Shown: positions 6,609-38,123 of the stretch, piece by piece
Position numbering within the stretch: position 1 is the first letter of the stretch
Layout: each line of letters starts with the position of its first letter
Notes under the pieces: model-generated
Seen by the model: the letters and a program-made list of their open reading frames with translations, nothing else
The model's database searches: none
What the model was told of the DNA's origin: nothing
Made by a program: the position numbers and the translations under genes
DNA from: a virus
Taxonomy: Duplodnaviria > Heunggongvirae > Uroviricota > Caudoviricetes
Reading direction: 5' to 3' (one strand)
Length of the DNA: 43,320 bases
IMG/VR virus record: IMGVR_UViG_2541047798_000010

Positions 6609-6623
6609 TTACCTTTCGGGTAA
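6609..6623. promoter_or_regulatory. Operator-type palindrome TTACC-N5-GGTAA (copy upstream of LexA-controlled gene, in divergent region with tailspike)
   Basis: ATTACCTTTCGGGTAAT; perfect match to the motif found at OR and OL. Confidence 0.6.
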
Positions 6624-6660
6624 TTTGCAAAACGTGCTGGATAGCAAACAAATTATTTGT

Positions 6661-6680
6661 TACTGTATAAACATACAGTT
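6661..6680. promoter_or_regulatory. LexA (SOS) box
   Basis: TACTGTATAAACATACAGTT: CTGT-N8-ACAG core intact, 17 of 20 positions match TACTGTATATATATACAGTA; 20 bp upstream of ATG 6700. Confidence 0.75.
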
Positions 6681-6699
6681 ATTGCATGGAGAAGATAAG

Positions 6700-6957
6700 A
6701 TGCAGCAGTATCACTATCCACTGGAAGACGGATTTACCGAAAGGATTCACACGCCGGGAGGCGTCAGGTCACTGGTGGAGGGATCGCACTTGATGAAATT
6801 ACTCCGGGATCTCGATAAGGATGGATTTAATGTCGATGGCCCACTTGCCGAACTGACTGCACTGATTAACTACGTCACCAGCTCACAGATGTCTATGCAG
6901 GATCTACAAACACATCTCGACTATTGTGCCGAACAATTACGAAAACAAACCAGATAA
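6700..6957 (+). CDS. Small standalone antirepressor-effector-domain protein (homolog of the C-terminal domain of the two Ant paralogs); SOS-controlled candidate antirepressor
   Basis: 85 aa from ATG 6700 (RBS GGAG 8 nt upstream); aligns with Ant C-terminus (IH-P-GV...LM-LL...DG-V-G-AELT...DLQTH-Y); LexA box immediately upstream. Confidence 0.65.
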   Translation: MQQYHYPLEDGFTERIHTPGGVRSLVEGSHLMKLLRDLDKDGFNVDGPLAELTALINYVTSSQMSMQDLQTHLDYCAEQLRKQTR

Positions 6958-6988
6958 GATTTGAAATTACCAATAGGAGTGCTTATAT

Positions 6989-7003
6989 TTACCTTTGCGG
7001 TAA
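6989..7003. promoter_or_regulatory. Operator-type palindrome TTACC-N5-GGTAA sitting in the loop of a hairpin (AGGAGTGC/GCACTCCT) at the outer edge of the left ant arm
   Basis: TTACCTTTGCGGTAA; mirrored by the copy at 10028. Confidence 0.6.
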
Positions 7004-7094
7004 ATTTACATCGCACTCCTCTTGTGCCATAGTAATCGGGCACTGGCAAAATCCAGTGCCGGGATTGGCGTCCCGGGTTACTAAGTGGCGCATA

Positions 7095-7117
7095 CCACGC
7101 CAGACGTGGTTTTTTTA
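7095..7117 (+). terminator. Rho-independent terminator inside the ant1 leader
   Basis: Stem CCACG/CGTGG followed by TTTTTTTAT; preceded by two further stem-loops (GGCACTGG/CCAGTGCC and CCGGGA/TCCCGG). Confidence 0.55.
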
Positions 7118-7272
7118 TGCGTTAAGCACAGCTATATCCGAATTATGGTGGGCTGGGCAGGGGTCCGAAAGGACGCCGGTACCACTTAGGCCGGTACGCC
7201 AACCTTGTCCAGTTCACCACCAGTAATTGGCGTTGCGGTGGTGATTAAAATCACTAAGTGGAGATAACCACC

Positions 7273-7983
7273 ATGGCTAATGCTCAAACTGCCATCTTCA
7301 AATTTGAATCTGTTAACCCTATCCGTTCCATCATTATCGATGGCCAACCATGGTTTGTAGCCCAAGACGTTTGTAGTGCGCTGCGTATCCAAAACGTCAC
7401 CCAAGCACTTGAAAAACTGGATGATGATGAAAGGTCTATGTTCAACATAGGGCATGAACATCGTGCAATTTTTGACAGCCGAGTAAAAGAGATCAACATT
7501 ATCTCCGAGTCAGGCCTCTACACACTGATCCTCCGCTGCCGCGACGCAGTGACACCAGGCACTATCCCCTACCGCTTTCGTAAATGGGTTACAGGTGAGG
7601 TTCTTCCTCAGATCCGCCGCACCGGAAGTTACATTAAAAACTCGCTCCCGCAGGAAGAACGCATAAAGATGGTTGCCGACCAGGTAGCCAACGCCACAGC
7701 ATCAGCAGTGATGCAGGCAATGAAGATAGAGAACAAAACCTACAGCGCCCCGCTGAAGCCCGGCTACCGCAGCCTGATTCATTCGCCGTCTGGTGTTCTC
7801 GGCCTGACGGAGAACTCACTGCTGATGAATCTGCTGAACCAGTTACAGGAAGACGGGCACGATGTATCGGGCGCGGCGGCGGAGCTGACCACCATGTTTT
7901 GCTACATCGTTGGTGTGAGCAAATGCCTGCGTGATATCCAGACGCACGCGGAGTACATCAACGACAAGGCTGGGTTCTTCTGA
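7273..7983 (+). CDS. Antirepressor paralog 1 (Bro-N-like N-terminal domain plus shared C-terminal effector domain)
   Basis: 236 aa from ATG 7273 (RBS GGAG); N-terminal IFKFESVNPIRSIIIDGQPWFVAQDVCSAL is Bro-N/KilA-N-like; C-terminal half nearly identical to paralog 2. Confidence 0.8.
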   Translation: MANAQTAIFKFESVNPIRSIIIDGQPWFVAQDVCSALRIQNVTQALEKLDDDERSMFNIGHEHRAIFDSRVKEINIISESGLYTLILRCRDAVTPGTIPYRFRKWVTGEVLPQIRRTGSYIKNSLPQEERIKMVADQVANATASAVMQAMKIENKTYSAPLKPGYRSLIHSPSGVLGLTENSLLMNLLNQLQEDGHDVSGAAAELTTMFCYIVGVSKCLRDIQTHAEYINDKAGFF

Positions 7984-8010
7984 CGGGCGGCGGCACAGGG
8001 ATGTGCCTTT
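7585..8010. repeat. Left arm of a near-identical inverted repeat (about 425 bp) covering the 3-prime half of ant1 and about 25 bp beyond its stop
   Basis: Reverse complement of 9045-9470 matches with only scattered substitutions; mirrored antisense ORFs 7634-7819 and 9232-9417 have near-identical translations. Confidence 0.8.
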
Positions 8011-8055
8011 AAATAATTCTGTACGATTGCAGACAGGGTGGTGAATAGAGTACTA

Positions 8056-8070
8056 TTACCTTACGGGTGA
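8056..8070. promoter_or_regulatory. Imperfect operator-type site upstream of the cargo gene
   Basis: TTACCTTACGGGTGA (one mismatch in the right half-site). Confidence 0.4.
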
Positions 8071-8107
8071 TCCATAGCGATTAGGCACCGATACAGGAGG
8101 AGCCCAC

Positions 8108-8140
8108 ATGAGAAAATTTGACGAGTACGAAGGCGTTTAA
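8108..8140 (+). other. 10-codon upstream ORF (MRKFDEYEGV) with strong RBS, followed by a terminator-like hairpin at 8161-8184; candidate attenuator leader for the cargo gene
   Basis: AGGAGG 7 nt upstream of ATG 8108; hairpin GGGGCC-ATTA-GGCCCC then GTTTTCAT; cargo start at 8200. Confidence 0.3.
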
Positions 8141-8199
8141 CATTCGGATAGTTTAATGACGGGGCCATTAGGCCCCGTTTTCATGTCTGGAGACAGTTT

Positions 8200-8739
8200 G
8201 TGTTAAGTGAAGAAATGCAATTTGCCATGGCTGTGGCTCAAATCGTAAGTGCAGTCGCGGTTTCGCTTGGCTTGTTCATAGCTATCGCTACTATTATTTA
8301 TAATGTAAATACAGCGAGAAAAGTACACACTTCAGTATTCCTTGGTGAAAGCAGGTTTGATGTAGATTATAAGAAAGGCCTATCTACTATGCGCCGCATT
8401 CACGAGTCGAACAAATCATTCCGCTCTTATATGTATCCAAGCAATGGGCAGGCTGATCTTACGGATGAAGAAAAGATAGAGAAGAGAGAAATAATTTACT
8501 GTCTAGGTTTCTACGAACGCATGGCTGTGAGCGTGAAGCGGAAAACTTATGATGAGACCATGATTAAGGAAGTATTTTACAGCTCCGTTGTAAATAACTA
8601 TCAGATTGCGCTACCTCTTATACAAGCTATTAGAGAAAAAGAAAACATAAACACATATTTTAAAGAATATGAATGGTTAGCCACACGATGGAAGGATTGT
8701 CCATTGAAGGACAAATCCCCGTGGTACAAGTTTTGGTAA
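8200..8739 (+). CDS. Membrane-anchored protein of unknown function; AT-rich cargo between the inverted ant genes (candidate superinfection-exclusion or abortive-infection protein)
   Basis: 179-aa ORF with GTG start at 8200 (GGAG 7 nt upstream) or ATG 8215; single N-terminal TM helix; markedly AT-rich; 3 of the first 8 Arg codons are AGA/AGG; followed by a strong terminator. Confidence 0.6.
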   Translation: MLSEEMQFAMAVAQIVSAVAVSLGLFIAIATIIYNVNTARKVHTSVFLGESRFDVDYKKGLSTMRRIHESNKSFRSYMYPSNGQADLTDEEKIEKREIIYCLGFYERMAVSVKRKTYDETMIKEVFYSSVVNNYQIALPLIQAIREKENINTYFKEYEWLATRWKDCPLKDKSPWYKFW

Positions 8740-8762
8740 GCCCGCAGCGCGGGCTTTTTTGT
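8740..8762 (+). terminator. Rho-independent terminator after the cargo gene
   Basis: GCCCGC-AGC-GCGGGC followed by TTTTTTGT directly after the TAA stop. Confidence 0.7.
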
Positions 8763-8832
8763 GGACGAAACAAAAGTCAGTGCTACACTCATTGACGCCA
8801 CATTGAGGTGGCTTATAGATGGAAATTTCACA

Positions 8833-8994
8833 ATGAAAAAAGCATTTGCTGCACTGTTCGTTTTGTTGTCTCTGGTAGCTTCAACTCAGGCCTTTGCCGG
8901 TCGTTGTCAGCACGACAGCGACACTGCTGCTGACGGCTCCCGCTGCGGTGGGCGTTCTGCGGATTCCCGCCCTGGCGGCGGTGGCATTCGTTAA
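8833..8994 (+). CDS. Possible small secreted Gly-rich peptide (53 aa); weak call
   Basis: Internal ATG of track ORF 8761-8994; predicted signal peptide MKKAFAALFVLLSLVASTQAFA; no convincing RBS. Confidence 0.3.
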   Translation: MKKAFAALFVLLSLVASTQAFAGRCQHDSDTAADGSRCGGRSADSRPGGGGIR

Positions 8995-9017
8995 AAACAA
9001 GGCCGCGAAAGCGGCCT
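8991..9017 (-). terminator. Rho-independent terminator for ant2
   Basis: Minus-strand stem GGCCGC-TTTC-GCGGCC followed by TTGTTTTTAA, about 50 bp downstream of the ant2 stop. Confidence 0.55.
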
Positions 9018-9018
9018 G

Positions 9019-9030
9019 TGACATGTCACG
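9019..9030. repeat. 12-bp perfect palindrome GTGACATGTCAC (copy 1 of 3)
   Basis: Exact 12-mer also at 28175-28186 and 30629-30640. Confidence 0.6.
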
Positions 9031-9044
9031 ATAGTTTCGTTTTG

Positions 9045-9470
9045 CACATCCCTGTGCCGCCGTTCTGTCAGAAGAACCCTGCTTTGTCGTTGATATACTC
9101 CGCGTGGGTCTGGATATCACGCAGGCATTTGCTCACACCGACGATGTAGCAGAACATGGTGGTCAGCTCCGCCGCCGCGCCCGATACGTCGTGCCCGTCG
9201 TCCTGTAACTGGTTCAGCAGATTCATCAGCAGTGAGTTCTCCGTCAGGCCGAGAACACCAGACGGAGAATGAATCAGGCTGCGGTAGCCGGGCTTCAGCG
9301 GGGCACTGTAGATTTTGTTCTCTATCTTCATCGCCTGCATTACTGCTGACGCCGTGGCGTTGGCTACCTGGTCGGCAACCATCTTTATGCGTTCTTCCTG
9401 CGGGAGCGAGTTTTTAATGTAACTTCCGGTGCGGCGGATCTGAGGAAGTACTTCGCCTGTAACCCATTCA
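9045..9470. repeat. Right arm of the near-identical inverted repeat (3-prime half of ant2)
   Basis: Reverse complement matches 7585-8010. Confidence 0.8.
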
Positions 9471-9760
9471 AGAAATCTGAATGCTCTCGTTCCCTCAGTC
9501 ATTGCCTCTTTGCAACGCAGAATAAGGATGTAGAGACCTGATTCTGAAACGATGGATAGTTCTTGTATTCCACCAGGGGTCTGTATTGAATACAGCCCCT
9601 TTTTGTTCCAGCCTTTTTTATCAAGTTTTCTCGCTTGTGTAACATCAATATTCAAAGCATTGCACACATCTTTGGTGACAAACCAAGGTTCTCCGTCAAT
9701 CATGAACATACGGATCTGGCAGGATGACTCAAAGGAAAAGATGGAAGGTTTGGTATTCAT
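9068..9760 (-). CDS. Antirepressor paralog 2 (Bro-N-like N-terminal domain plus shared C-terminal effector domain), inverted relative to paralog 1
   Basis: 230 aa from ATG 9760 (RBS AGGTGA); N-terminal domain diverged from paralog 1, C-terminal about 130 aa near-identical. Confidence 0.8.
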   Translation of the reverse strand: MNTKPSIFSFESSCQIRMFMIDGEPWFVTKDVCNALNIDVTQARKLDKKGWNKKGLYSIQTPGGIQELSIVSESGLYILILRCKEAMTEGTRAFRFLEWVTGEVLPQIRRTGSYIKNSLPQEERIKMVADQVANATASAVMQAMKIENKIYSAPLKPGYRSLIHSPSGVLGLTENSLLMNLLNQLQDDGHDVSGAAAELTTMFCYIVGVSKCLRDIQTHAEYINDKAGFF

Positions 9761-10027
9761 GGCGATCACCTTTGTAGTTAGGTTAATCACCACCGCTGAG
9801 ACCAATCAGATGGTGGTGAACTGTGCAGAGTTGGTCTTACCGGCTACAAAGGAACCCGGCGCACCTTTCGGTGCCCCCACACAGCCCACCATAGAATAGG
9901 TGCGCTTTACACATAAAAAAACCGCTTATGCGGCATATGTGCCTCTGTAGTAATCCGGGAGACCAATCCCGGCACTGGATTTTGCCAGTGCCTGATTACT
10001 ATGGCACAAGAGGAGTGCGATGTAAAT

Positions 10028-10042
10028 TTACCGCAAAGGTAA
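10028..10042. promoter_or_regulatory. Operator-type palindrome TTACC-N5-GGTAA at the outer edge of the right ant arm
   Basis: TTACCGCAAAGGTAA; mirror of the 6989 copy, with the same downstream stem-loops and terminator in inverted orientation. Confidence 0.6.
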
Positions 10043-10065
10043 TGATAAACGCTAAGAAATATTAA

Positions 10066-10084
10066 AATCAACCATATTTGGTTA
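10066..10084. promoter_or_regulatory. Second palindromic motif ATCAACCAnATTTGGTTA (AACCA-N4-TGGTT), copy 1
   Basis: AATCAACCATATTTGGTTA; near-identical element at 36927-36945; degenerate AACCACATA versions at 6569, 27150 and 34987, each next to an operator-type site. Confidence 0.35.
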
Positions 10085-10189: not shown

Positions 10190-10543
10190 GTGCCATTCCA
10201 CGGCGCAGAGCTTTATGTTGTCAATCATAACGGCGAACCATACACCCCAATGAAACCTATCGTTGAAGGCATGGGTATGGATTGGGCTTCACAGTTTACG
10301 AAAATGAAGCAGCGGTTTAAAACCTGCATTGTGAAAATCACAATGCAGCTTCCTGGGGATGAACAGCGCCGTGAGATTATTTGTTTGGCACTTCGCAAAC
10401 TTGCTGGCTGGTTGCAAACCATCAGCCCTAACAAAGTCCGCCCTGAAATCCGCGAAAGTATTGAAACATCAACCGTATCGATATCGACACGGTTGATTAT
10501 GACGGTAACTTATTTCCGTGTGTCCTATTTCTCCCGCCACTAA
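10190..10543 (+). pseudogene. Possible gene remnant; ORF with GTG start and no RBS
   Basis: 117-aa track ORF; normal GC content, no ribosome-binding site, ends directly against the minus-strand AT-rich gene. Confidence 0.25.
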
Positions 10544-26904: not shown

Positions 26905-27111
26905 TTACTGACCAAGCAGCGTTTTACCGCTGGTATTAGCGGTTGATGTGTCGCCCTGAGAACCGGTAAGCAGCGTAGAACTACGACCAGCAGCAGCGCG
27001 ACGGCGACGAGTTTCTTCGTCGCGGGCATCAACAACGGCGGCATCCTGCTCCTGTGGTGCTGCCTGAACTTCTGGTGTTGCAGGCACTGATGGTGAGCTA
27101 CCCATGCACAT
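26905..27111 (-). CDS. Small Ala/Gln-rich protein, first ORF of the late operon; weak call
   Basis: 68 aa; RBS GGAG 8 nt upstream of ATG 27111; low-complexity sequence. Confidence 0.35.
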   Translation of the reverse strand: MCMGSSPSVPATPEVQAAPQEQDAAVVDARDEETRRRRAAAGRSSTLLTGSQGDTSTANTSGKTLLGQ

Positions 27112-27149: not shown

Positions 27150-27163
27150 AACCACATATGATT
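27150..27163. promoter_or_regulatory. Degenerate AACCA-N4-TG motif upstream of the late (portal) operon, 38 bp from an operator-type site
   Basis: AACCACATATGATT; compare AACCACATATGGAT at 6569-6582 upstream of the tailspike. Confidence 0.3.
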
Positions 27164-27201
27164 TATTTATCGTAGATAGTTGACATTTAACGCACTAATT
27201 A

Positions 27202-27216
27202 TTACCTTTCAGGTAA
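27202..27216. promoter_or_regulatory. Operator-type palindrome TTACC-N5-GGTAA upstream of the late operon
   Basis: TTACCTTTCAGGTAA; TTGACA hexamer at 27180-27185. Confidence 0.6.
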
Positions 27217-27239
27217 GCAAAGAGTTCATTCCGGTTATT

Positions 27240-27538
27240 AACCTGACTGGCTTGTCGTTAAATTGAACAGGTGGGGTGAGCTTTTATTTTGAGCAGTACG
27301 GTGTATGGCACATGCGCCGATAGCGGTCTGGATACGTTTAAGGGGCACCCTCCCTTGCTCGGGCAAACGAACCAGGTAGCCGGAATGTGCAAGTCGAGCG
27401 GTTTTATTCCGCGCACGGGGATTCACCATCCCGGCGATTCGGTGTGACGCCTCGGAAGAGACGAGGGTACAACGATGAGAGCATTTATGGAGCCGCGACA
27501 AAGTGTGGTGCCTTAACAGGCTAAGTGCTCTCAGCGTT
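27240..27538 (+). other. About 300-bp non-coding, stem-loop-rich segment upstream of the tRNA; possible leader or uncharacterised structured RNA
   Basis: No plausible ORF on either strand; several GC-rich stem-loops (for example GGGGAT/ATCCC, CCTCG/CGAGG, GCACAT/ATGTGC). Confidence 0.25.
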
Positions 27539-27615
27539 GTGGCATTAGCTCAGTTGGACAGAGCAACCGCCTTCTAAGCGGTTGGTCGCAGGTTCGAATC
27601 CTGCATGCCACGCCA
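27539..27615 (+). tRNA. tRNA-Arg (anticodon UCU, reads AGA), phage-encoded
   Basis: 77-nt cloverleaf: acceptor GTGGCAT/ATGCCAC, D-stem GCTC/GAGC, anticodon stem ACCGC/GCGGT with loop CTTCTAA, T-arm GCAGG-TTCGAAT-CCTGC, discriminator G and encoded CCA; differs from host argU. Confidence 0.9.
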
Positions 27616-27658
27616 GAATCACGCCTAAGGACCGTGATGCCAGAAGTTCCAGGGGCTT

Positions 27659-27701
27659 GGCGGTGATGGTTTCCCTTGAAGGACTATCACCGCCCTTTTT
27701 A
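27659..27701 (+). terminator. Rho-independent terminator downstream of the tRNA
   Basis: 9-bp stem GGCGGTGAT/ATCACCGCC followed by CTTTTT. Confidence 0.65.
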
Positions 27702-27778
27702 CAGCAGGACGCCATTGCGATGGCTTCATGCTGTAAACCAGTACAGCCACGGAAGGCATAACTCATTGCTTCCAGTTC

Positions 27779-27802
27779 GCCCGGTTCGCCGGGCATTTTT
27801 TT
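27779..27802 (+). terminator. Second hairpin plus U-tract immediately before the RBS of the next gene (terminator or attenuator)
   Basis: GCCCGG-TTCG-CCGGGC followed by ATTTTTTT, then AAGGTGA RBS and ATG 27814. Confidence 0.5.
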
Positions 27803-27813: not shown

Positions 27814-28170
27814 ATGAACGACCAGCAAATCGAAAAAGAAATCGCTGAGAAAGGCAAAACGGCACCGCGAGTTACGCCCCAATATATCGAAAGCATCATT
27901 CTTGAAGAGCATTTCTTTACTGCTTATGACGGCATTCGTGCTGCCAATATGGGCGTTGGCGATTCATGGACAGCGCATAAATCTACAGACCTCCTGACTT
28001 TCTGCGTACTGGTGCTGAAGAATGGCTTCACCGTCACCGGAGAGAGCGCCTGTGCAAGCCCGGAAAACTTTGATGCAGAAATTGGTCGGAAGATTGCCCG
28101 GCAGAATGCTGTAAACAAAATCTGGATGCTTGAAGGTTACTTGCTGAAGCAGAAGTTAAGCGAGCAATAA
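27814..28170 (+). CDS. Small phage protein, probably N4 Gp49 / Sf6 gp66-like family; plus-strand moron between terminase and portal
   Basis: 118 aa; RBS AAGGTGA; N-terminus MNDQQIEKEIAEKGKTAPRVT matches a widespread prophage protein family (assignment from memory). Confidence 0.5.
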   Translation: MNDQQIEKEIAEKGKTAPRVTPQYIESIILEEHFFTAYDGIRAANMGVGDSWTAHKSTDLLTFCVLVLKNGFTVTGESACASPENFDAEIGRKIARQNAVNKIWMLEGYLLKQKLSEQ

Positions 28171-29736: not shown

Positions 29737-30332
29737 TGATTGCCATCCTGACGTTCTTTCAGTCTCTTCCTGGCTGCCGCTATGCGATCAGCAATTGTCA
29801 CATTCACATTAACATCCAGGCGTTCTTTGAATGCGTTGACGTCGACGTGCTTACCAATCAGTTCGAGGTTCTTCACCTTGTCAGGCCATTTAATTTTTTT
29901 GAGGATGCCAACCAGCTCTTTCTCGTCTCCACGGCCTTCGAACATGTCGGCCAGTTCGAAACCTGTCAGGTACTGCCGCCAGACCTTAGGCCATTCCGAG
30001 ACCGGCTTGATGCTCATATCGTCGTTGAGAATGTCAATCACGTCCATCTGGTCGATCTCCACCAGGCGCATGAGAACGTAATCAGCACTGACGCGCATTC
30101 GTTTGTTGCGCTCCTCCATCAACTCGGCAATCCGTTTTTGAATGCGTTCATCGCGCATCATGACACTGGCTTTAACTGCCGCTGTATTTGGGGAGAATCC
30201 TGCGTTAATCGCAGCCTGAGTCTGGTTTTCAGGCGTTTGGATGTATGACTGGCAATAAGCCTCCTGCATTGCTGTTAGTGGCTTAAATTGCGTTGATTTG
30301 CGTTTATAGGTTTTAGGTTCAGCAGGCATCAT
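29733..30332 (-). CDS. terS: Terminase small subunit
   Basis: Start chosen at ATG 30332 (199 aa); the track's longer TTG-start ORF translates the operator-containing leader into an implausible TITTTVTITTVV N-terminus. Confidence 0.6.
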   Translation of the reverse strand: MMPAEPKTYKRKSTQFKPLTAMQEAYCQSYIQTPENQTQAAINAGFSPNTAAVKASVMMRDERIQKRIAELMEERNKRMRVSADYVLMRLVEIDQMDVIDILNDDMSIKPVSEWPKVWRQYLTGFELADMFEGRGDEKELVGILKKIKWPDKVKNLELIGKHVDVNAFKERLDVNVNVTIADRIAAARKRLKERQDGNQ

Positions 30333-30349
30333 AACCACCGTGGTAATAG

Positions 30350-30364
30350 TTACCGTTGTGGTAA
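30350..30364. promoter_or_regulatory. Operator-type palindrome TTACC-N5-GGTAA 18 bp upstream of terS
   Basis: TTACCGTTGTGGTAA, between a minus-strand terminator and the terS start. Confidence 0.6.
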
Positions 30365-30628: not shown

Positions 30629-30640
30629 GTGACATGTCAC
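30629..30640. repeat. 12-bp perfect palindrome GTGACATGTCAC (copy 3 of 3)
   Basis: Overlaps the stop codon of the zinc-ribbon gene, 10 bp upstream of ATG 30619. Confidence 0.6.
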
Positions 30641-30975
30641 ACTATTAATTTCGTTTCATGCCAGCCTTTAGTCACCCAGCATTGCGAGTCACCATTACAC
30701 GGGCATGAATTAACGGGAACTCTCTCGCCGCACTTACCGCAAAGTTTTCTGCTGATCGATTTTATACGCCCGCGCACACGTGCATCATCCTGGCGGATCA
30801 GCAGCGCGATGTACTCGGCCATTTCATAGGGATCGTGACCAGGGCGCCGGGCGGCGCAGTTCCGCGCCAGCATTTCCTGCTCCTGCTTATCCAGCACCAG
30901 TTCAATTTTGCGCTCACCAGCGGCGGACTGCCGAGCGCGCTGCGCGGCTTTGCGTTCTGCGGGGGATTTAGCCAC
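30637..30975 (-). CDS. Zinc-ribbon protein (Cys cluster CGKCGERVPVNSCPCNGDSQC); candidate transcription regulator, start uncertain
   Basis: GTG 30975 chosen (GGAG 8 nt upstream); basic N-terminal region plus C-terminal Cys cluster; located just upstream of the terS operator. Confidence 0.45.
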   Translation of the reverse strand: MAKSPAERKAAQRARQSAAGERKIELVLDKQEQEMLARNCAARRPGHDPYEMAEYIALLIRQDDARVRGRIKSISRKLCGKCGERVPVNSCPCNGDSQCWVTKGWHETKLIV

Positions 30976-31090
30976 GAATCGCACTCCACGCCAGATTGAT
31001 TAATGACTCCCAGGCAATATAAACCAGGATACCAGCAGCCAGGCCGAAACCAATCACCATGGCATAAAGCAGAGCGTTGCGCTTGTTCAT
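30968..31090 (-). CDS. 40-aa hydrophobic micro-protein (MNKRNALLYAMVIGFGLAAGILVYIAWESLINLAWSAIRG), not in the ORF track
   Basis: ATG overlaps the upstream stop as TAATG (translational coupling); single predicted TM helix. Confidence 0.3.
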   Translation of the reverse strand: MNKRNALLYAMVIGFGLAAGILVYIAWESLINLAWSAIRG

Positions 31091-31933: not shown

Positions 31934-32689
31934 TTAAACTGCTAGTTGCAATTGCATTTCAAATCGGTCGCGTTGTTCACAATACGCAAGAGAACCAGGG
32001 CTATTGTGTGCCTCAATCCGTTCTACCATTAATGCTGCTCGTGTCTCTTTACTTGCAGGTGCATAAGCCCCAGACCAGGCTTTATCAATACCGATGTTTC
32101 GAGCGACGTTCGTACTATCTGCGCTGGCTAAGGGTAATTTTGTGAATATCTGCGGATTTAACATGCGCAATCCATGTAGTTTCGCAACCGGCTGACCATA
32201 CTCATCAACAATGTGACGAATCAGGTCTTTCATTCTGGCTACCGCAAGAGTTGGGCGCTTTACGTCATAGTCGCCACAACTACCGATAGCCACTCGCGGA
32301 AACTCATTGCACAAATGAATAAATCGCTCGTCACTTTCATTCATGTGCCACACTGGAACGCCAGCTAGTTTTCCGTGAGGCCACTCATTCAGAAGCGCAT
32401 CATTTTCTTCCTCTCCGCCATCAATAACATCAGGGATAATGGCAAAATCGAATCCTGGGTGATTCTTCCAGCGAGCAACAAACTCGTAGTAATCGCTCCA
32501 GTCGATTTTGTTTTTGCCAGCTGCTTTCCAGGCGGTGAATGCACCGTTGTCCAGTGCGAACGACTGACAGTATTCAGCAGCGAGATTGATCTGGCCTGAA
32601 TGCGCAAAACTGATAAACGCATGTCGCCCTTTCCATGCTCTCATGGCGCACGTATCAGGAGTAATAGGCCCACCGTGATAGTGAATCAT
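31934..32689 (-). CDS. Truncated TGT-fold protein (tRNA-guanine transglycosylase superfamily, DpdA-like); candidate DNA 7-deazaguanine transglycosylase
   Basis: 251 aa from ATG 32689 (RBS AAGGAG 7 nt upstream); motif-level correspondence to TGT: ITPDTCAM vs VETPCFMP, ALDNGAF vs TDSGGFQ, RVAIGSCGDYD vs GYAVGGLAVGE, ADSTNVARN vs FDCVMPTRNARN; lacks the C-terminal zinc subdomain. Confidence 0.55.
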   Translation of the reverse strand: MIHYHGGPITPDTCAMRAWKGRHAFISFAHSGQINLAAEYCQSFALDNGAFTAWKAAGKNKIDWSDYYEFVARWKNHPGFDFAIIPDVIDGGEEENDALLNEWPHGKLAGVPVWHMNESDERFIHLCNEFPRVAIGSCGDYDVKRPTLAVARMKDLIRHIVDEYGQPVAKLHGLRMLNPQIFTKLPLASADSTNVARNIGIDKAWSGAYAPASKETRAALMVERIEAHNSPGSLAYCEQRDRFEMQLQLAV

Positions 32690-34613: not shown

Positions 34614-34963
34614 AGTTCCTCAACCTCCCATCCACCACCGAGCTTTTTAGGTTTTGGATAAGCAACCTGAAAGACAAACGGATAGCTGTCTGCCGCAACC
34701 TTCATCTTGACTCTCGCATCGTCAGTAAAGACTGACTTACTTCCCTTAACGTCCACCATCACCAACTGCCCGTCAGCCAACATCACGGCAAAATCTACAG
34801 TCAGGAAGCAGTTGTCAGCTAACCGCAGCTTGATACCCTCGAATCGATACCAGGCGATTTCCCCTGCACGTTTACGCTGCTCAAGGTGCTGGCAATACGC
34901 AGATTCTGTTTTGTTCATCTGGCCTGTTTTGAGTCGACCAAGAGCCTGTATCTGTTTTCTCAT
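34610..34963 (-). CDS. DUF1064-like protein (putative PD-(D/E)xK-type nuclease)
   Basis: 117 aa; motif pattern TESAYCQHL...YRFEGIKL...TVDFAVMLADGQLVMVDVKG; operator-type site overlaps its RBS. Confidence 0.5.
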   Translation of the reverse strand: MRKQIQALGRLKTGQMNKTESAYCQHLEQRKRAGEIAWYRFEGIKLRLADNCFLTVDFAVMLADGQLVMVDVKGSKSVFTDDARVKMKVAADSYPFVFQVAYPKPKKLGGGWEVEEL

Positions 34964-34966
34964 GAT

Positions 34967-34981
34967 TTACCCCTGAGGTAA
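34967..34981. promoter_or_regulatory. Operator-type palindrome TTACC-N5-GGTAA overlapping the RBS of the 34610-34963 gene
   Basis: TTACCCCTGAGGTAA, 4 bp from the start codon. Confidence 0.55.
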
Positions 34982-35028
34982 TTAAAAACCACATAAGACA
35001 CGAAATCAATAGATTTTAGAATATTTTA

Positions 35029-35043
35029 TTACCCAACAGGTAA
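35029..35043. promoter_or_regulatory. Operator-type palindrome TTACC-N5-GGTAA, second copy in the intergenic region downstream of the P-like gene
   Basis: TTACCCAACAGGTAA; a promoter-like TTGATT-N17-TTTAAT (minus strand) lies between the two sites. Confidence 0.55.
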
Positions 35044-35080
35044 TCATCGAGACGTAAAAAAATGCGCTATCGCGCTGGTA

Positions 35081-35863
35081 TTACTTGATAAATCCTGCCG
35101 CCTTTCCCCGCCTGTATTCCTCCATCAGCCACTGCGCCGGTGTTATTCCCCCCAGGGTGGCGGCGTTAGGCATGCACCCGAAACTTCGCCCTGGTGGATG
35201 GTAAACGTCTCTCCCTGTATCCGGAGGTGTACTCATGGGTTCTGGCTTTGCCTGTATGCTGATCACCGGATCGGGTATCTGCTGTCCGGAAGCCACCTTT
35301 TTCGCCCAATCATCGAGCAGCCTGCGCGCGTGTTTCTCAACCTCAATCTCGCTAAGCTGGCGCTGATACATTGCACGGCGGGTATCACATACGACCCAGT
35401 ACATAACCGGATGTCGCCACGGGAATCTTTCGGGACCACCAGGATATAAACTTTTTTCCTTGCTGTACCGGTGAAACTCCGCCATCACATCGTCAATGGT
35501 GACGCCAAGAACCATCTTGCTGTCTTTACACCACTTGATAAATTGCCCTGGCGACGGCCAGAACGGAGATTCACTGGCGCGGGCGTGGCGCATACCAGCG
35601 TTAACCTGTTCCATTGTTGTGATCCCATTCTCCAGAAACGCAAGCATCCATTGTTTTCGAAATTCGTTTAGCTTTCCTTGCTCGCTGATAGCAGCGATGC
35701 TGCCTGGAAATGCAGCCTGTAACTGGACAAACATTTCGTTGAAAATTCTTGCAACCTGCTCCTTCTTTGCCCTTTCATCGTCAGCAGAAGCAACCGCCGT
35801 CGAGTGGTCATGCCCACCACGAAAGCGATCGTACTCATTAAGAAGTTCTGGAGTTGATTTCAT
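35081..35863 (-). CDS. Replication protein P-like (helicase loader)
   Basis: Start chosen at ATG 35863 (RBS GAGGTG); segment RKQWMLAFLENGITTMEQVNAGMRHARASESPFWPSPGQFIKWCKD closely matches lambda P (RQWVLAFRENGITTMEQVNAGMRVARRQNRPFLPSPGQFVAWCRE). Confidence 0.85.
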   Translation of the reverse strand: MKSTPELLNEYDRFRGGHDHSTAVASADDERAKKEQVARIFNEMFVQLQAAFPGSIAAISEQGKLNEFRKQWMLAFLENGITTMEQVNAGMRHARASESPFWPSPGQFIKWCKDSKMVLGVTIDDVMAEFHRYSKEKSLYPGGPERFPWRHPVMYWVVCDTRRAMYQRQLSEIEVEKHARRLLDDWAKKVASGQQIPDPVISIQAKPEPMSTPPDTGRDVYHPPGRSFGCMPNAATLGGITPAQWLMEEYRRGKAAGFIK

Positions 35864-36653
35864 CCCACACCTCATCTATCCAGTCAGTGTTATGCCAGTC
35901 AAGGCTCTTTCTGACTTCACCTGATTTCTGTCTACAGAACTGGATGCGCCTTGCCAGCTTCTGCTCCCACTGTGCCTGATGGTATGCCTTACCCTCAGCC
36001 ATCCAGTAAATTCTGAACTCTGCAAGTTCCTGTGCCGTTGGCAGACTGTCCAGGTAGATTCCCTGCAATGAGCTTTTCCGAAGAAAGTCATCTGATGGCT
36101 GCCATTGTTCATGCATGACAAATTTGCCTAATTGCCCTGGCCCACCAGGAGGAACAAAGTTATTCATCACGGCGTTGTTTGCGCCGGGGTCATGAGGCAC
36201 AGAATCCCCGGTTTTTGTCCTGCTCTCCCTCTCTTGGTTAAATGACTGGTTATATGACTGGTTCTGGATCCCGTTTTTGGGATCATTCAACATCCCGTTT
36301 TTGGGATCATTCAACATCCCGTTTTCGGGAACATTACCGTTTTCGGGTTCATTACACCCTTCTAGGTTGCCTTTAATGTTCCCGTTTTTGGTTATATTAA
36401 GAGAGAAAACCCGCACTCTTTTTGTCGCTCCCTTTCTCTCTCCGGTATCTGAAATAAGCCCCATTTTCATGAGCGATATAAGCCCGGCCTGCACGGTTTT
36501 TTTATTCAGGCAAGTGTCTTTAACGAGGCGTTCTATGCTGGGGTAGCAGAGGTTATATTCATCGGCTCTGTCAGCCATCGAGAGCAGTATGAGCTTTAAT
36601 GATGAGCTACCTGGATCTGTCTCCCAGGCCCAATCTGTTGCATGTCTGCTCAT
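35838..36653 (-). CDS. Replication initiator O-like protein containing the origin iterons
   Basis: 271 aa; RBS GGAG; N-terminal HTH-like domain; repetitive linker NDPKNGMLNDPKNG encoded by the iteron DNA; directly upstream of the P-like gene. Confidence 0.65.
   Translation of the reverse strand: MSRHATDWAWETDPGSSSLKLILLSMADRADEYNLCYPSIERLVKDTCLNKKTVQAGLISLMKMGLISDTGERKGATKRVRVFSLNITKNGNIKGNLEGCNEPENGNVPENGMLNDPKNGMLNDPKNGIQNQSYNQSFNQERESRTKTGDSVPHDPGANNAVMNNFVPPGGPGQLGKFVMHEQWQPSDDFLRKSSLQGIYLDSLPTAQELAEFRIYWMAEGKAYHQAQWEQKLARRIQFCRQKSGEVRKSLDWHNTDWIDEVWDEINSRTS
36267..36395. repeat. Origin-type iteron array inside the O-like gene
   Basis: Two exact 24-bp direct repeats (CATCCCGTTTTTGGGATCATTCAA, first copy starts GATCC) plus 2-3 degenerate copies with core CCCGTTTT(T/C)GG. 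Confidence 0.6.
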
Positions 36654-36668
36654 GATTAATCTCCGCTA

Positions 36669-36869
36669 TCAGTTTGAGTGTTGTGGGGAGGAATTAATCA
36701 TGATCTGCTTAATCTCTGCCCTGATGCGACGGTTTGATTCCATGGTGCACTCAACACAGTGTCCGTTGTAAACCCAGCGTTCACTGTCATGTCCATGCTT
36801 ACATGGTTTTCCGGTGTAGTAGCGTTTAAGTCCGCGCTTTGCGGCATCAATACGTGTAATGATTTCCAT
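36669..36869 (-). CDS. Small zinc-finger-like protein in the cII-equivalent position; function unknown
   Basis: 66 aa from ATG 36869; motif KPCKHGH...CVEC. Confidence 0.4.
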   Translation of the reverse strand: MEIITRIDAAKRGLKRYYTGKPCKHGHDSERWVYNGHCVECTMESNRRIRAEIKQIMINSSPQHSN

Positions 36870-36926
36870 GGTAAGCCCTGTTATTAGTATTGGGATTACG
36901 GTTATTTTGTGCTGACACAAAAAAAA

Positions 36927-36945
36927 GATCAACCAGATTTGGTTA
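36927..36945. promoter_or_regulatory. Second palindromic motif ATCAACCAnATTTGGTTA, copy 2
   Basis: GATCAACCAGATTTGGTTA, directly followed by an imperfect operator-type site at 36950-36964. Confidence 0.35.
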
Positions 36946-36949
36946 TTTA

Positions 36950-36964
36950 TTACCTTTGAGGTGC
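36950..36964. promoter_or_regulatory. Imperfect operator-type site upstream of the cII-position gene
   Basis: TTACCTTTGAGGTGC. Confidence 0.4.
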
Positions 36965-36970
36965 GAATAG

Positions 36971-36997
36971 ATATGAAAAGACCGCCGGGTGGCGGTC
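36971..36997 (-). terminator. Rho-independent terminator immediately after the cro-like gene (tR1-like position)
   Basis: Minus-strand stem GACCGCC-ACCC-GGCGGTC followed by TTTTCATAT. Confidence 0.5.
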
Positions 36998-37019
36998 TAC
37001 AGAGGGTTGTGACTGGATA

Positions 37020-37250
37020 TCATGAGTAGAAGAAGTATGCCAGTTCTGCTTTTGAGCGCAGCCATTGTCTTGTTTTACAGGCTTTAAAAAGCCCATTCAT
37101 CAATACTTTACCTGGCATTTTGCGCTTACCTGTTAAGTGAGTCTGGATATAGTGACTCGTCGTTCCGGCTTCCTGTGCGAAGGCTTCACGCTCATCCGGA
37201 GTAAGTGCAAGCCAGTGCTTTTTGAAATCGAAATGTCCGTTATCGCTCAT
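37020..37250 (-). CDS. Cro-like small DNA-binding protein, divergent from the repressor
   Basis: 76 aa; position opposite the repressor across a three-operator region. Confidence 0.55.
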   Translation of the reverse strand: MSDNGHFDFKKHWLALTPDEREAFAQEAGTTSHYIQTHLTGKRKMPGKVLMNGLFKACKTRQWLRSKAELAYFFYS

Positions 37251-37286
37251 AGCTATTGCCTGATATTTATTTCAGATAATAAATAT

Positions 37287-37349
37287 TCACCCATAAGGTA
37301 ACAAAAATCAAGGATAGTTACCTATGAGGTGCATTTACCTGTTGGGTAA
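37287..37349. promoter_or_regulatory. OR-type operator region: three operator-type sites between the cro-like and repressor genes
   Basis: TCACCCATAAGGTAA (37287-37301), TTACCTATGAGGTGC (37318-37332), TTACCTGTTGGGTAA (37335-37349); minus-strand promoter-like TTGATT-N17-GAATAT with the first site inside the spacer. Confidence 0.7.
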
Positions 37350-37404
37350 TATTGCTTTAAATTGAATCATCTACTGATTCATATATGAGGCGATTTTCCA
37401 GAAA

Positions 37405-37989
37405 ATGAAAAGTATCCAGGACGTCCGCAGGCAAAATCTCAACGACTTGATCGACCGTGAATTCAATGGTGTTCAGACGCGGATGGCAGAAAAACTTGGA
37501 ACTCAGGCAAATCTGGTAAACCGCTGGGCTCTTGGCAAGAAGGTTATCGGCGACCAGGTTGCACGAAAAATTGAAGCTGCCGCCAATAAACCCCGTAACT
37601 GGCTTGATATTGATCGTTCGCTTTCTCAGGAGGGTTTTCAGCCTGTCGGCCCGAGCGATATAGGTCAGTTGGCGGCTCACAACCTGGAACGCTGGATGAG
37701 CGAAAGCCGCGACCTTTCAACACAGGGAAAACTTCACCGCGCATCCGGCGTCGCCCAGGTGACAATCAGCCGCCTGTTAAACAATGAGGTCAGCGTTTCC
37801 ATTTCCACTCTGGAGAATGTTGCATCCGCATTCGGGCGTCACGGATATGAACTACTGATTCACCCGCACGACCCTGCGACTATCAACTATGACCGCTCAC
37901 GCTACGCATTGTTACCCGAAACCGAGAAAGCAAAGATCGAAAGTTACATTGAATTTGTCATCAACCAGAACGAAAAAAGCAAACAATAA
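37405..37989 (+). CDS. Prophage repressor with two tandem HTH (XRE-type) domains and no LexA-like autocleavage (S24) domain
   Basis: 194 aa; HTH-like segments near aa 20-60 and 95-150; divergent from cro-like gene; own terminator downstream. Confidence 0.7.
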   Translation: MKSIQDVRRQNLNDLIDREFNGVQTRMAEKLGTQANLVNRWALGKKVIGDQVARKIEAAANKPRNWLDIDRSLSQEGFQPVGPSDIGQLAAHNLERWMSESRDLSTQGKLHRASGVAQVTISRLLNNEVSVSISTLENVASAFGRHGYELLIHPHDPATINYDRSRYALLPETEKAKIESYIEFVINQNEKSKQ

Positions 37990-38010
37990 AACTATAGTTT
38001 TCAGTAAGTA

Positions 38011-38036
38011 AGCCGCCTCATGGCGGCTTTTTTATT
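38011..38036 (+). terminator. Rho-independent terminator after the repressor gene
   Basis: AGCCGCC-TCAT-GGCGGCT followed by TTTTTATT. Confidence 0.7.
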
Positions 38037-38046
38037 GCCAGATAGA

Positions 38047-38123
38047 TTACCTTACGGGTAATTTTTTTAACTCATATCTATTGACACTAAACCAAATAAG
38101 CATAATTATTACCTCAACGGTAA
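38047..38123. promoter_or_regulatory. OL-type region: two perfect operator-type sites flanking a sigma70-like promoter for the plus-strand recombination operon
   Basis: TTACCTTACGGGTAA (38047-38061); -35 TTGACA (38081-38086), 17-bp spacer, -10 AATTAT; TTACCTCAACGGTAA (38109-38123) starts right after the -10. Confidence 0.65.

What the first reader, a model, noticed from the sequence alone, without database searches (positions are those of the whole stretch)
6609..38123. One 15-bp palindrome, TTACC-N5-GGTAA, recurs at OR, OL and eight other promoters
Perfect copies are at 6609, 6989, 10028, 27202, 30350, 34967, 35029, 37335, 38047 and 38109 (start coordinates); imperfect copies are at 8056, 36950, 37287 and 37318. 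About 0.04 perfect copies are expected by chance in 43 kb. All are intergenic. Three sit between the cro-like and repressor genes and two flank the OL-type promoter, so the motif is very probably the repressor operator. Extra copies in front of the SOS antirepressor gene, both ant genes, the cargo gene, the late operon, terS and a mid-operon nuclease gene imply the repressor directly controls many operons, as P1 C1 or N15 CB do, rather than only the immunity region.
Basis: partly seen in the sequence, partly recalled or inferred. Interest (0 to 1): 0.7.

Follow-up and report, generated by a model that had tools for sequence, protein, structure and literature searches.

The report
Prophage repressor operators at many promoters
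The repeated 15-bp palindrome is real and is very probably the binding site of this phiV10/epsilon15-type prophage's repressor at about ten promoters, but the same sites are already annotated as repressor-binding in phage epsilon15, so this is a new example of a known arrangement.

Summary
There are ten perfect TTACC-N5-GGTAA copies, against 0 in 100 shuffles. All 13 lie in the 7.2% of the window that is non-coding. Sites 36950 and 37318 have two mismatches and are supported only by orthology.

The window is a phiV10/epsilon15-like (Uetakevirus) E. coli prophage. Its repressor is a full-length homologue of Salmonella phage SPC32H Rep (PDB 5D50). Its small antirepressor matches SPC32H Ant and has a LexA box in front of it.

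The same motif sits at the same map positions in phiV10, Tyrion, epsilon15, SPC32H and Klebsiella phage BUCT711. The epsilon15 RefSeq record already labels seven of these positions 'protein_bind: repressor'.

At four clear sigma-70 promoters the -10 hexamer ends on the first T of the site. At PL and at a mid-operon promoter, a second site lies exactly 62 bp upstream, just after a terminator.

Site 27202 overlaps the -10 of a promoter that points away from the late operon, towards a tRNA-Arg gene. Site 6609 overlaps no recognisable promoter.

Verdict: a new member of a known kind, of modest interest.

The parts
37405..37989 (+). Repressor gene (Rep), 194 aa. It has an N-terminal HTH DNA-binding domain and no S24 peptidase domain.
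   Evidence: full-length match to SPC32H Rep, PDB 5D50_A, E 3.5e-42; 99% identical to phiV10 p40, 78% to Tyrion, 43% to epsilon15 and SPC32H, with helix NLVNRW (residues 36-41) invariant. Pfam finds HTH domains only.
37020..37250 (-). Cro-like gene, 76 aa, divergent from rep.
   Evidence: phrog_35, transcriptional repressor; 58-84% identical across the genus, with AGTTSHYIQTHLT invariant. It is a likely second binder of the same sites.
37287..37349 (.). OR, three operators: 37287-37301 (1 mismatch), 37318-37332 (2 mismatches) and 37335-37349 (perfect). The invariant TTGATT at 37311-37306 on the minus strand is the likely PR -35. The operator nearest cro fills the PR spacer.
   Evidence: alignment of six phages. 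The 17 bp and 30-31 bp spacings are conserved.
38047..38123 (+). OL/PL module. The order is rep terminator (38010-38029), distal operator 38047-38061, PL (TTGACA 38081-38086, 17-nt spacer, AATTAT 38104-38109), then proximal operator 38109-38123. The two operators are 62 bp apart.
   Evidence: the half-sites and the -35 are invariant in six phages.
34967..35043 (-). Mid-operon module. The order is terminator after the P-like gene, distal operator 35029-35043, promoter (TTGATT 35009-35004, 17-nt spacer, TTTAAT 34986-34981), then proximal operator 34967-34981. The N5 of the proximal operator carries the ribosome-binding site of the DUF1064-like gene, whose ATG is at 34963. The operators are 62 bp apart.
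   Evidence: six-phage alignment, with the 62 bp spacing in all six.
36950..36964 (.). Weak operator (2 mismatches) 14 nt after the cro terminator and before the p42-like gene (36669-36869, minus strand).
   Evidence: Orthologous one-mismatch sites are at phiV10 33112, Tyrion 35365 and BUCT711 2546. It is not significant on its own.
30332..30364 (-). terS operators: 30350-30364 (perfect) and 30332-30346 (1 mismatch), 18 bp apart. They lie after the terminator of the early-right operon and directly before the terS ATG at 30329. The candidate -10 TACTAT ends on the first T of the site, and the -35 is weak.
   Evidence: The same 18-bp pair occurs in epsilon15 (12, 30), phiV10 (87, 105) and Tyrion (67, 85). 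The epsilon15 feature at 12-27 is labelled 'repressor'.
27180..27216 (+). Operator 27202-27216, overlapping the -10 (TACCTT, 27203-27208) of a promoter with a consensus -35 (TTGACA, 27180-27185). The promoter points to tRNA-Arg (27539-27615) and a gp49/66-family gene (27814-28170). The late operon (gp3-like gene, 26905-27111, minus strand) lies on the other side.
   Evidence: TGTCAA and its distance to the site are invariant in five phages. SPC32H has a tRNA-Arg on the same strand. The epsilon15 feature at 2931-2947 is labelled 'repressor'.
6609..6623 (.). Operator between the tail-fibre gene (3385-6504, minus strand) and the small ant gene. It overlaps no recognisable sigma-70 promoter.
   Evidence: Orthologues are at epsilon15 19896 (annotated 'repressor'), SPC32H 20013, Tyrion 21776 and phiV10 20877 (1 mismatch).
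6661..6957 (+). LexA box TACTGTATAAACATACAGTT (6661-6680), followed by the small antirepressor gene (6700-6957, 85 aa).
   Evidence: match to SPC32H Ant, PDB 5D50_E, E 4e-47.
6961..7983 (+). First large ant unit. The order is promoter TTGAAA-17-TATATT (6961-6989), operator 6989-7003, isrK-like RNA (7040-7116), C4 antisense RNA (7141-7224), then the Bro-N/Ant-domain gene (7258-7983).
   Evidence: the C-terminal 74 aa are 42% identical to the small Ant.
9068..10071 (-). Second large ant unit, an inverted paralogue of the first. The order is promoter TTGATT-18-TATCAT (10071-10042), operator 10028-10042, isrK-like RNA (9991-9915), C4 RNA (9896-9809), then the Bro-N/Ant-domain gene (9805-9068).
8056..8739 (+). 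Cargo slot. The order is operator 8056-8070 (1 mismatch, with the candidate -10 TACTAT ending on its first T), a 10-codon ORF (8108-8140), a hairpin, then the DUF4760 gene (8200-8739).
   Evidence: a prophage of E. coli PF9285 carries a YafO toxin-antitoxin cargo in the same slot and has a perfect site 43 bp before it.

Best explanation
TTACC-N5-GGTAA (extended form A-TTACC-N5-GGTAA-T) is the operator of the prophage's SPC32H-type repressor Rep. The cro-like protein probably binds it as well. Rep has no autocleavage domain. It is inactivated by antirepressor proteins, and the small ant gene is under LexA control.

The genome is divided into short transcription units. Each unit starts, often directly after a terminator, with its own sigma-70-type promoter carrying an operator. 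In the lysogen Rep therefore shuts each unit off directly.

At four clear promoters (PL, the mid-operon promoter and both large ant promoters) the operator covers about -7 to +8. At PR it fills the spacer between the -35 and -10 elements. At the tRNA-Arg promoter it contains the -10 itself.

At PL and at the mid-operon promoter a second operator lies 62 bp upstream, about six helical turns. One Rep tetramer, which has two pairs of DNA-binding domains, could hold both operators and clamp the promoter. This step is inferred.

Rep also represses two Bro-N/Ant-domain genes. Once LexA-controlled Ant has removed some Rep, more antirepressor should be made. This feedback is also inferred.

What is shown here: the sites, their placement, their conservation, and the homologies. 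What is inferred: who binds the sites, any looping, and any feedback.
For: Statistics. The source is a Uetakevirus-type prophage. Rep matches PDB 5D50_A and Ant matches 5D50_E, and a LexA box lies at 6661-6680. Rep has HTH domains only.

The epsilon15 RefSeq record places 'protein_bind: repressor' features on this motif. The motif is at orthologous positions in SPC32H, epsilon15, phiV10, Tyrion and BUCT711, each with 0 of 100-200 shuffles reaching the observed count.

Alignments show that the half-sites, the -35 elements and the terminators are conserved while N5 varies. The 62 bp spacing holds in 11 of 12 pairs. The -10 hexamer ends on the first T of the site at 6989, 10028, 34967 and 38109.

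The Rep recognition helix NLVNRW is invariant across repressors that are only 43% identical, which matches the invariant half-site. Operator N5 G+C content tracks the Rep clade: 40% against 11%, P 7e-6.

Literature: SPC32H Rep binds palindromic DNA as a tetramer (PMC9638917) and has an N-terminal DNA-binding domain, a dimerisation domain and a tetramerisation domain (PMC9986798). Over-expressing the identical ZX5 repressor cuts holin and endolysin transcripts by more than 99.9% (PMC9782041).
Against: No binding experiment was available to me for this phage or, in readable form, for any relative. The SPC32H and epsilon15 primary papers are not held.

Conservation cannot separate Rep from the cro-like protein, which is even better conserved. 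No relative with a different operator was found, so a true repressor/operator covariation test was not possible.

Site 6609 overlaps no recognisable promoter. The promoters at 8056 and 30350 are weak (7 of 12 matches). Site 27202 controls a promoter that faces away from the late genes.

A 62-bp loop is very tight, and the looping idea is untested.
Confidence: 0.85

Rival explanations
1. The sites are mainly targets of the cro-like protein rather than Rep. This protein would turn down early, ant and packaging promoters during lytic growth, while Rep would act only at OR and OL.
For: The cro-like protein is 58-84% identical across the genus and has an invariant putative recognition helix (AGTTSHYIQTHLT). 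That matches the invariant half-site at least as well as Rep does. It is homologous even in Moraxella phage Mcat9, which has related palindromes.
Against: In known lambdoid switches, Cro and the repressor share operators, so this is more likely an addition than an alternative (my own knowledge). The Rep recognition helix is also invariant. The epsilon15 curators assigned the sites to the repressor. Leaving the ant genes unrepressed in the lysogen would be self-defeating.
Confidence: 0.07
2. Several sites act as roadblocks to read-through transcription rather than as promoter operators. This would apply to the sites that directly follow terminators (38047, 35029, 36950, 30350). They would stop, for example, PRM transcripts that pass the rep terminator from entering the early-left genes on the same strand, much as mycobacteriophage L5 stoperators do.
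For: Four sites lie 12-19 nt after a terminator. The rep gene and the early-left operon are on the same strand. Site 36950 has no partner site and no clear promoter.
Against: Two of these four sites are the distal members of 62-bp pairs that bracket good promoters. That fits cooperative repression. The sites are palindromic, whereas L5 stoperators are asymmetric and orientation-dependent (my own knowledge). This is a mechanistic variant of the best explanation and does not exclude it.
Confidence: 0.25
3. The motif is bound by another factor, either a host regulator or another phage regulator such as the phrog_536 regulator encoded at 30637-30984. Alternatively it is a recombination or module-boundary sequence.
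For: The sites lie at module junctions of a mosaic genome. One junction is the variable cargo slot. Binding has not been tested.
Against: The tripartite arrangement between the divergent rep and cro genes is what an immunity operator looks like, as are the strict positions relative to the -10 and -35 elements. A related distant Rep/Cro pair in Mcat9 carries related palindromes at its own OR-like and OL-like regions. No host regulator with this site is known to me.
Confidence: 0.03

Closest known systems
Salmonella phage SPC32H Rep/Ant switch (Kim and Ryu 2013; Kim et al. 2016; PDB 5D50 and 5D4Z)
   Same: Rep and the small Ant are clear homologues. A LexA box lies before ant. Rep has no autocleavage domain. 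The same palindrome occurs at the same map positions in SPC32H itself. Rep is reported to be a tetramer that binds palindromic sites (PMC9638917).
   Different: The window's Rep is only 43% identical to SPC32H Rep, and its operators have G+C-richer spacers. The window also has two Rep-controlled Bro-N/Ant-domain genes with isrK and C4 RNAs, plus a cargo slot, none of which is annotated in SPC32H.
Phage epsilon15 'protein_bind: repressor' features (RefSeq NC_004775.2)
   Same: The motif and the scattered positions are identical: before terS, before gp3, at gp19/tail fibre, at OL and before the mid-operon nuclease gene.
   Different: The epsilon15 features are predictions. They omit the OR sites, the proximal mid-operon site, the second terS site, and the sites before the lysis cassette and before int. 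Epsilon15 has no large ant genes.
Phage P1 C1 repressor and its immI operon (c4-icd-ant), and phage N15 CB
   Same: In all of these, one prophage repressor has operators at many promoters outside the immunity region. As in P1 immI, the ant gene here follows a C4 antisense RNA and is fronted by a repressor operator. The P1 and N15 details are from my own knowledge.
   Different: No homology to C1 or CB was found or tested. The P1 C1 operator is asymmetric, whereas this one is a palindrome. This is an integrated podovirus prophage, not a plasmid prophage.
Mycobacteriophage L5 gp71 stoperators
   Same: Many repressor sites are spread through the genome in short intergenic gaps. Some lie where they could stop read-through transcription.
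   Different: L5 sites are asymmetric 13-mers oriented with transcription and mostly not at promoters (my own knowledge). The sites here are palindromic, and most are positioned precisely on promoters.
Lambda CI/Cro with tripartite OR and OL
   Same: The repressor and cro genes are divergent with three operators between them. A second operator cluster lies at the leftward promoter.
   Different: There is no RecA-dependent cleavage domain. Induction works through antirepressors. There are operators at about eight further promoters. No antitermination system is evident.

Membership tests
SPC32H-type Rep/Ant lysogeny switch (Uetakevirus) | The repressor is homologous to SPC32H Rep over its full length (DNA-binding, dimerisation and tetramerisation domains). 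| tested here: met
   residues 1-190 align to 5D50_A residues 2-197, E 3.5e-42. The domain layout is taken from PMC9986798.
SPC32H-type Rep/Ant lysogeny switch (Uetakevirus) | The repressor lacks a LexA-like (S24) autocleavage domain. | tested here: met
   Pfam finds only HTH families.
SPC32H-type Rep/Ant lysogeny switch (Uetakevirus) | There is a small antirepressor homologous to SPC32H Ant, with a LexA box at its promoter. | tested here: met
   E 4e-47 to 5D50_E. TACTGTATAAACATACAGTT at 6661-6680, 20 nt before the ATG.
SPC32H-type Rep/Ant lysogeny switch (Uetakevirus) | Rep binds the palindromic operator, and Ant releases it. | not testable with these tools
   Only indirect support is available: the epsilon15 record features and secondary descriptions of Kim et al. 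2016.
Uetakevirus genus-wide operator set | The same motif occurs at orthologous promoters: terS, the gp3/tRNA region, ant/tail fibre, OL pair, OR triple, and the mid-operon pair at 62 bp. | tested here: met
   Exceptions: the site before the lysis cassette is absent from the window, and the site before int would lie beyond the window's end.
P1 C1 / N15 CB multi-operator repressors | Repressor operators occur at many promoters outside the immunity region. | tested here: met
   from sequence placement only.
P1 C1 / N15 CB multi-operator repressors | The repressor is homologous to C1 or CB. | not tested
   No comparison was run. The best structural relative is SPC32H Rep.
P1 C1 / N15 CB multi-operator repressors | The operator is asymmetric (P1 C1). 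| tested here: not met
   The site is a perfect palindrome. It works like this family but is not a member.
L5-type stoperators | The sites are asymmetric, oriented with transcription, and lie inside transcription units away from promoters. | tested here: not met
   The sites are palindromic, and at least six sit precisely on promoters.
P1 immI-type ant control (C4 antisense RNA before ant) | A C4 RNA gene lies between the promoter and ant. | tested here: met
   RF01695 at 7141-7224 (66 bits) and at 9809-9896 (78.6 bits). Both exceed the gathering score of 45.

The most novel reading that the evidence does not exclude
The conserved module 'terminator, distal operator, promoter, proximal operator' has its operator centres exactly 62 bp apart. 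It may be the DNA counterpart of Rep's unusual tetramer: one tetramer would hold both operators and clamp the promoter in a very small loop. Together with an operator on every transcription unit, this would replace an antitermination cascade. The G+C content of the operator spacer, rather than the half-site, would set immunity specificity between Rep clades. The Rep-repressed Bro-N/Ant-domain genes would give a self-reinforcing induction switch.
Probability: 0.3. Interest if true: 0.55.

Novelty: new member of a known kind. Interest (0 to 1): 0.3.

Why it matters
The result gives a ready map of the Rep regulon for phiV10-type prophages, which are common in E. coli. The ant region alone matches 697 of 5,426 complete genomes. 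These phages are also used as O157 reporter and engineering phages.

The map shows that lysogeny here depends on direct repression of about ten promoters rather than on a single switch. It also yields precise, testable predictions: the 62-bp operator pairs, the role of the spacer composition, and antirepressor feedback. These could link the published Rep tetramer structure to real operator layouts. It does not reveal a new kind of system.

Tried and rejected
- **Primary papers.** I tried to read the epsilon15 genome paper (PMC2698709) and the two SPC32H papers (PMC3807360, PMC4983836) by PMC id, DOI and PubMed id. None is held. I therefore cannot say which operators were tested experimentally.
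- **Motif in the literature.** A full-text search for the motif, written five ways, found nothing.
- **Covariation test.** I looked for a relative whose divergent repressor goes with a different palindrome. This failed because every Rep from 43% to 100% identity keeps the same recognition helix and the same half-site. Only the spacer composition differs.
- **Distant homologues.** Pseudomonas phage PseuP_224 gave nothing significant. Moraxella phage Mcat9 gave a related but different palindrome cluster. Its cro-like gene is also homologous, so it does not separate Rep from Cro.
- **Sigma-70 promoter for the late operon at 27202.** Rejected. The -10-like and -35 elements are on the other strand.
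- **RNA hairpin reading of the palindrome.** Rejected. The stem is only 5 bp, the loop is not conserved, and half of the sites lie upstream of the transcription start.
- **Defence function of the cargo.** PADLOC found no defence family for the cargo genes.
- **Technical limit.** Whole-genome loci fetched by accession did not appear in the Python sandbox. Relatives were therefore scanned with the DNA search instead.

Full report
**1. The observation**

An exact scan finds TTACC-N5-GGTAA at 6609, 6989, 10028, 27202, 30350, 34967, 35029, 37335, 38047 and 38109. None appeared in 100 dinucleotide-preserving shuffles.

That gives 13 sites against 0.7 expected.
- Sites 36950 and 37318 each have two mismatches and share the same variant right arm, GGTGC.
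- With a deliberately generous gene list, only 7.2% of the window is non-coding. All 13 sites with at most one mismatch lie wholly within it. P is about 4e-12 for the ten perfect copies.
- The composition-based expectation is 0.044 copies for the window. Among all 5-N5-5 palindromes, the TTACC arm occurs ten times and the next arm twice.
- Two-mismatch matches are background as a class: 22 of 24 are in coding sequence. Sites 36950 and 37318 therefore stand only on orthology.

**2. What the window is**

The window is a mosaic relative of Escherichia phage phiV10 and Salmonella phage epsilon15, genus Uetakevirus.

- The repressor (37405-37989) is 99% identical to phiV10 p40 and 100% identical to that of phage HEMP4.
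- It aligns over its full length to the crystallised repressor Rep of Salmonella phage SPC32H (5D50_A, E 3.5e-42).
- Pfam finds only HTH domains, with no autocleavage domain.
- The 85-aa gene at 6700-6957 matches SPC32H Ant (5D50_E, E 4e-47).
- That gene is preceded by a near-consensus LexA box, TACTGTATAAACATACAGTT, at 6661-6680.

This is therefore the SPC32H-type switch: a non-cleavable repressor that is removed by a LexA-controlled antirepressor. The description of that switch is from my own knowledge of Kim and Ryu 2013. I could not read the paper.

**3. The motif is genus-wide and already annotated**

The epsilon15 RefSeq record carries 'protein_bind: repressor / lysogeny' features at seven positions:
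- 12-27, before terS
- 2931-2947, before gp3
- 19895-19911, between gp19 and the tail-fibre gene
- 32479-32494, 32554-32570 and 32616-32632, on the OL side
- 35906-35922, before the mid-operon RuvC gene

Each feature coincides with an exact TTACC-N5-GGTAA.

The same motif, far above shuffle expectation, is found in SPC32H, phiV10, Tyrion and Klebsiella phage BUCT711. It occupies the same map positions:
- a pair 18 bp apart before terS
- one site in the gp3 upstream region
- one site between the small ant gene and the tail-fibre gene
- one site on the large ant promoter
- a one-mismatch site before the lysis cassette (absent in the window)
- a one-mismatch site before int (beyond the window's end)
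- an OL pair
- an OR triple, with spacings of 17 and 30-31 bp
- a weak site after the cro terminator
- a pair before the mid-operon nuclease-like gene

**4. Placement relative to promoters**

- At four clear promoters the -10 hexamer ends exactly on the first T of the site, so the operator covers roughly -7 to +8. These are 6961-6989 (TTGAAA-17-TATATT), 10071-10042 on the minus strand (TTGATT-18-TATCAT), 35009-34981 on the minus strand (TTGATT-17-TTTAAT) and 38081-38109 (TTGACA-17-AATTAT).
- At PL and at the mid-operon promoter a second operator lies 62 bp upstream, 12 nt after a terminator.
- Six-phage alignments of both modules show that the terminator, both pairs of half-sites and the -35 (CTATTGA) are invariant, while N5 and the remaining sequence vary.
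- The 62 bp spacing holds in 11 of 12 cases and is 63 bp in the twelfth.
- In the proximal mid-operon operator, N5 is constrained to nAGrG because it doubles as the ribosome-binding site. The ATG follows 3 nt after the site.
- At OR, an invariant AAAAATCAA gives a TTGATT -35 for PR on the cro strand. The operator nearest cro fills the PR spacer.

**5.

*Site 27202.* It overlaps the -10 (TACCTT, 27203-27208) of a promoter whose consensus -35 (TTGACA, 27180-27185) is on the plus strand.
- Both that hexamer and its distance to the site are invariant in five phages.
- The promoter points away from the late operon, towards a tRNA-Arg(UCU) gene at 27539-27615 and a gp49/66-family gene at 27814-28170.
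- SPC32H has a tRNA-Arg on the equivalent strand.
- No sigma-70 promoter facing the gp3-like gene overlaps the site.
- Direct Rep control of the late operon is therefore possible but not shown.

*Site 6609.* Its centre lies about 50 bp upstream of the -10 region of the LexA-box promoter. It overlaps no recognisable promoter on either strand.

*Site 8056.* This is the cargo site, with one mismatch. It gains support from a prophage of E. coli PF9285. There a YafO toxin-antitoxin pair replaces DUF4760 in the same slot, and a perfect site lies 43 bp before it.

**6. Who binds the sites**

- The Rep N-terminal domain keeps an invariant helix, NLVNRW, across repressors that are only 43% identical overall. 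This includes the Klebsiella phage. It fits the invariant half-site.
- The cro-like protein is even better conserved, at 58-84% identity, with AGTTSHYIQTHLT invariant. Conservation therefore cannot separate the two proteins. Both probably use the sites, as in lambdoid switches.
- No relative with a different operator exists in the phage collection, so a true covariation test was not possible.
- One difference does track the Rep clade. N5 is 40% G+C in the window and Tyrion, against 11% in epsilon15 and BUCT711 (P 7e-6). Orthologous sites are not independent, so this is a lead and not proof of a role in specificity.
- A distant Rep/Cro pair in Moraxella phage Mcat9 has clusters of a related palindrome (TTACYTTTAARGTAA-like) at its own OR-like and OL-like regions. 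There are 10 hits against 1.7 expected.

**7. Mechanism**

Literature I could read gives three points:
- SPC32H Rep binds palindromic DNA as a tetramer whose DNA-binding domain pairs come from different dimers, and one tetramer suffices for repression (PMC9638917).
- Rep has a DNA-binding domain, a dimerisation domain and a p53-like tetramerisation domain (PMC9986798).
- Over-expression of the ZX5 repressor, stated there to be identical in sequence to phiV10 p40, lowers holin and endolysin transcripts by more than 99.9% (PMC9782041).

The best-supported model is direct steric repression of each promoter by Rep. The 62-bp pairs allow one tetramer to hold both operators on the same face of the helix. 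This bridging step is inferred.

The two Bro-N proteins are encoded at 7258-7983 and 9068-9805. They are inverted paralogues, 75% identical, and their C-terminal domain is 42% identical to the small Ant. Each has an operator at +1. This suggests a feed-forward step in induction, which is also inferred.

**8. Comparison and novelty**

The system works like P1 C1 or N15 CB in that one repressor acts at many operons. The resemblance to P1 extends to a C4 antisense RNA in front of ant. It is not shown to be a member of those families. The operator is palindromic and the repressor belongs to the SPC32H Rep family.

The scattered sites are already annotated in epsilon15 and the switch proteins are already characterised. 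The finding is therefore a correct rediscovery in a new mosaic prophage. The parts not covered by any source I could read are:
- the strict promoter geometry
- the invariant 62-bp pairs
- the divergent tRNA promoter
- the operator at the cargo slot
- the clade-specific spacer composition

These are modest extensions that can be tested.

Noticed in passing
window 7040-7224 (+) and 9809-9991 (-): Each large ant gene has a leader carrying an isrK-like Hfq-binding RNA (67.7 and 74.7 bits) followed by a C4 antisense RNA (66 and 78.6 bits). This resembles the P1 immI layout, placed behind a Rep operator.
   Followed up: partly
window 27539-27615 (+): A tRNA-Arg(UCU) gene lies on the strand opposite the late operon. 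ORF 27545-27796 (minus strand) overlaps it, and its phiV10 counterpart appears to be annotated as p04. That ORF and ORF 27238-27501 (minus strand) are probably not genes.
   Followed up: partly
window 27150-27160, 6569-6579, 3140-3150, 34987-34997 (all minus strand): A second box, CATATGTGGTT (exact or one mismatch), lies upstream of the gp3-like late operon, the tail-fibre gene and the lysis cassette, and in the spacer of the mid-operon promoter. The same is true in phiV10 and epsilon15. It may be a late-promoter or activator element. Genome-wide counts at two mismatches are not significant, and the geometry is not uniform.
   Followed up: partly
window 6978-7083 / 9948-10053 and 7481-7984 / 9067-9570: Two inverted repeats (106 nt at 92% and 504 nt at 89%) make the two Bro-N/Ant-domain units mirror images around a variable cargo slot. 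The cargo is DUF4760 here and a YafO toxin-antitoxin pair in TL-2011b and in E. coli PF9285. Parts of the region occur in 697 of 5,426 complete E. coli genomes.
   Followed up: partly
window 8108-8195: Between operator 8056 and the DUF4760 gene lie a 10-codon ORF (MRKFDEYEGV) with a strong ribosome-binding site and then a GC-rich hairpin followed by a T run. This may be a leader-peptide attenuator.
   Followed up: no
L002 (phiV10) 41-119: The annotated phiV10 terS start (position 41) places the two terS operators (87-101 and 105-119) inside the coding sequence. In epsilon15, Tyrion and the window, terS starts directly after the second operator. The phiV10 start is probably annotated too far upstream.
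   Followed up: partly
operator N5 spacers in the window and loci L002-L006: Spacer G+C content follows the Rep clade. It is 33-40% in the phiV10, window and Tyrion sites and 3-15% in the epsilon15, SPC32H and BUCT711 sites. This is a possible basis for immunity specificity through indirect readout.
   Followed up: partly
window 1-1071 and 43320: The window ends exactly on the integrase start codon (42070-43320, minus strand). It begins with two plus-strand genes, a glycine-zipper/TraT-like protein and a DUF5384 protein, beyond the Rz gene. The conserved one-mismatch site before int (TTACCTTAAAGGTAT in four relatives) would lie outside the window.
   Followed up: no
window 3080-3384: The one-mismatch or perfect site that relatives carry before the lysis cassette (epsilon15 24704, phiV10 24692, SPC32H 24782, Tyrion 26408) is absent here. 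The O-antigen-modification gene (oac or O-antigen ligase) that relatives carry between the tail-fibre gene and the lysis cassette is also missing.
   Followed up: no
window 10190-10543 (+): This is a 117-aa remnant of a P22-type antirepressor N-terminal domain (P22_AR_N, E 1e-31). The equivalent is annotated as a truncated pseudogene in E. coli PF9285.
   Followed up: no
L008 (Moraxella phage Mcat9) 2357-2492 and 4110-4167: A distant Rep-like and Cro-like gene pair is flanked by clusters of a related palindrome (TTACYTTTAARGTAA-like). This suggests that the Rep DNA-binding domain, the Cro-like protein and this operator type form an old, widespread module.
   Followed up: partly
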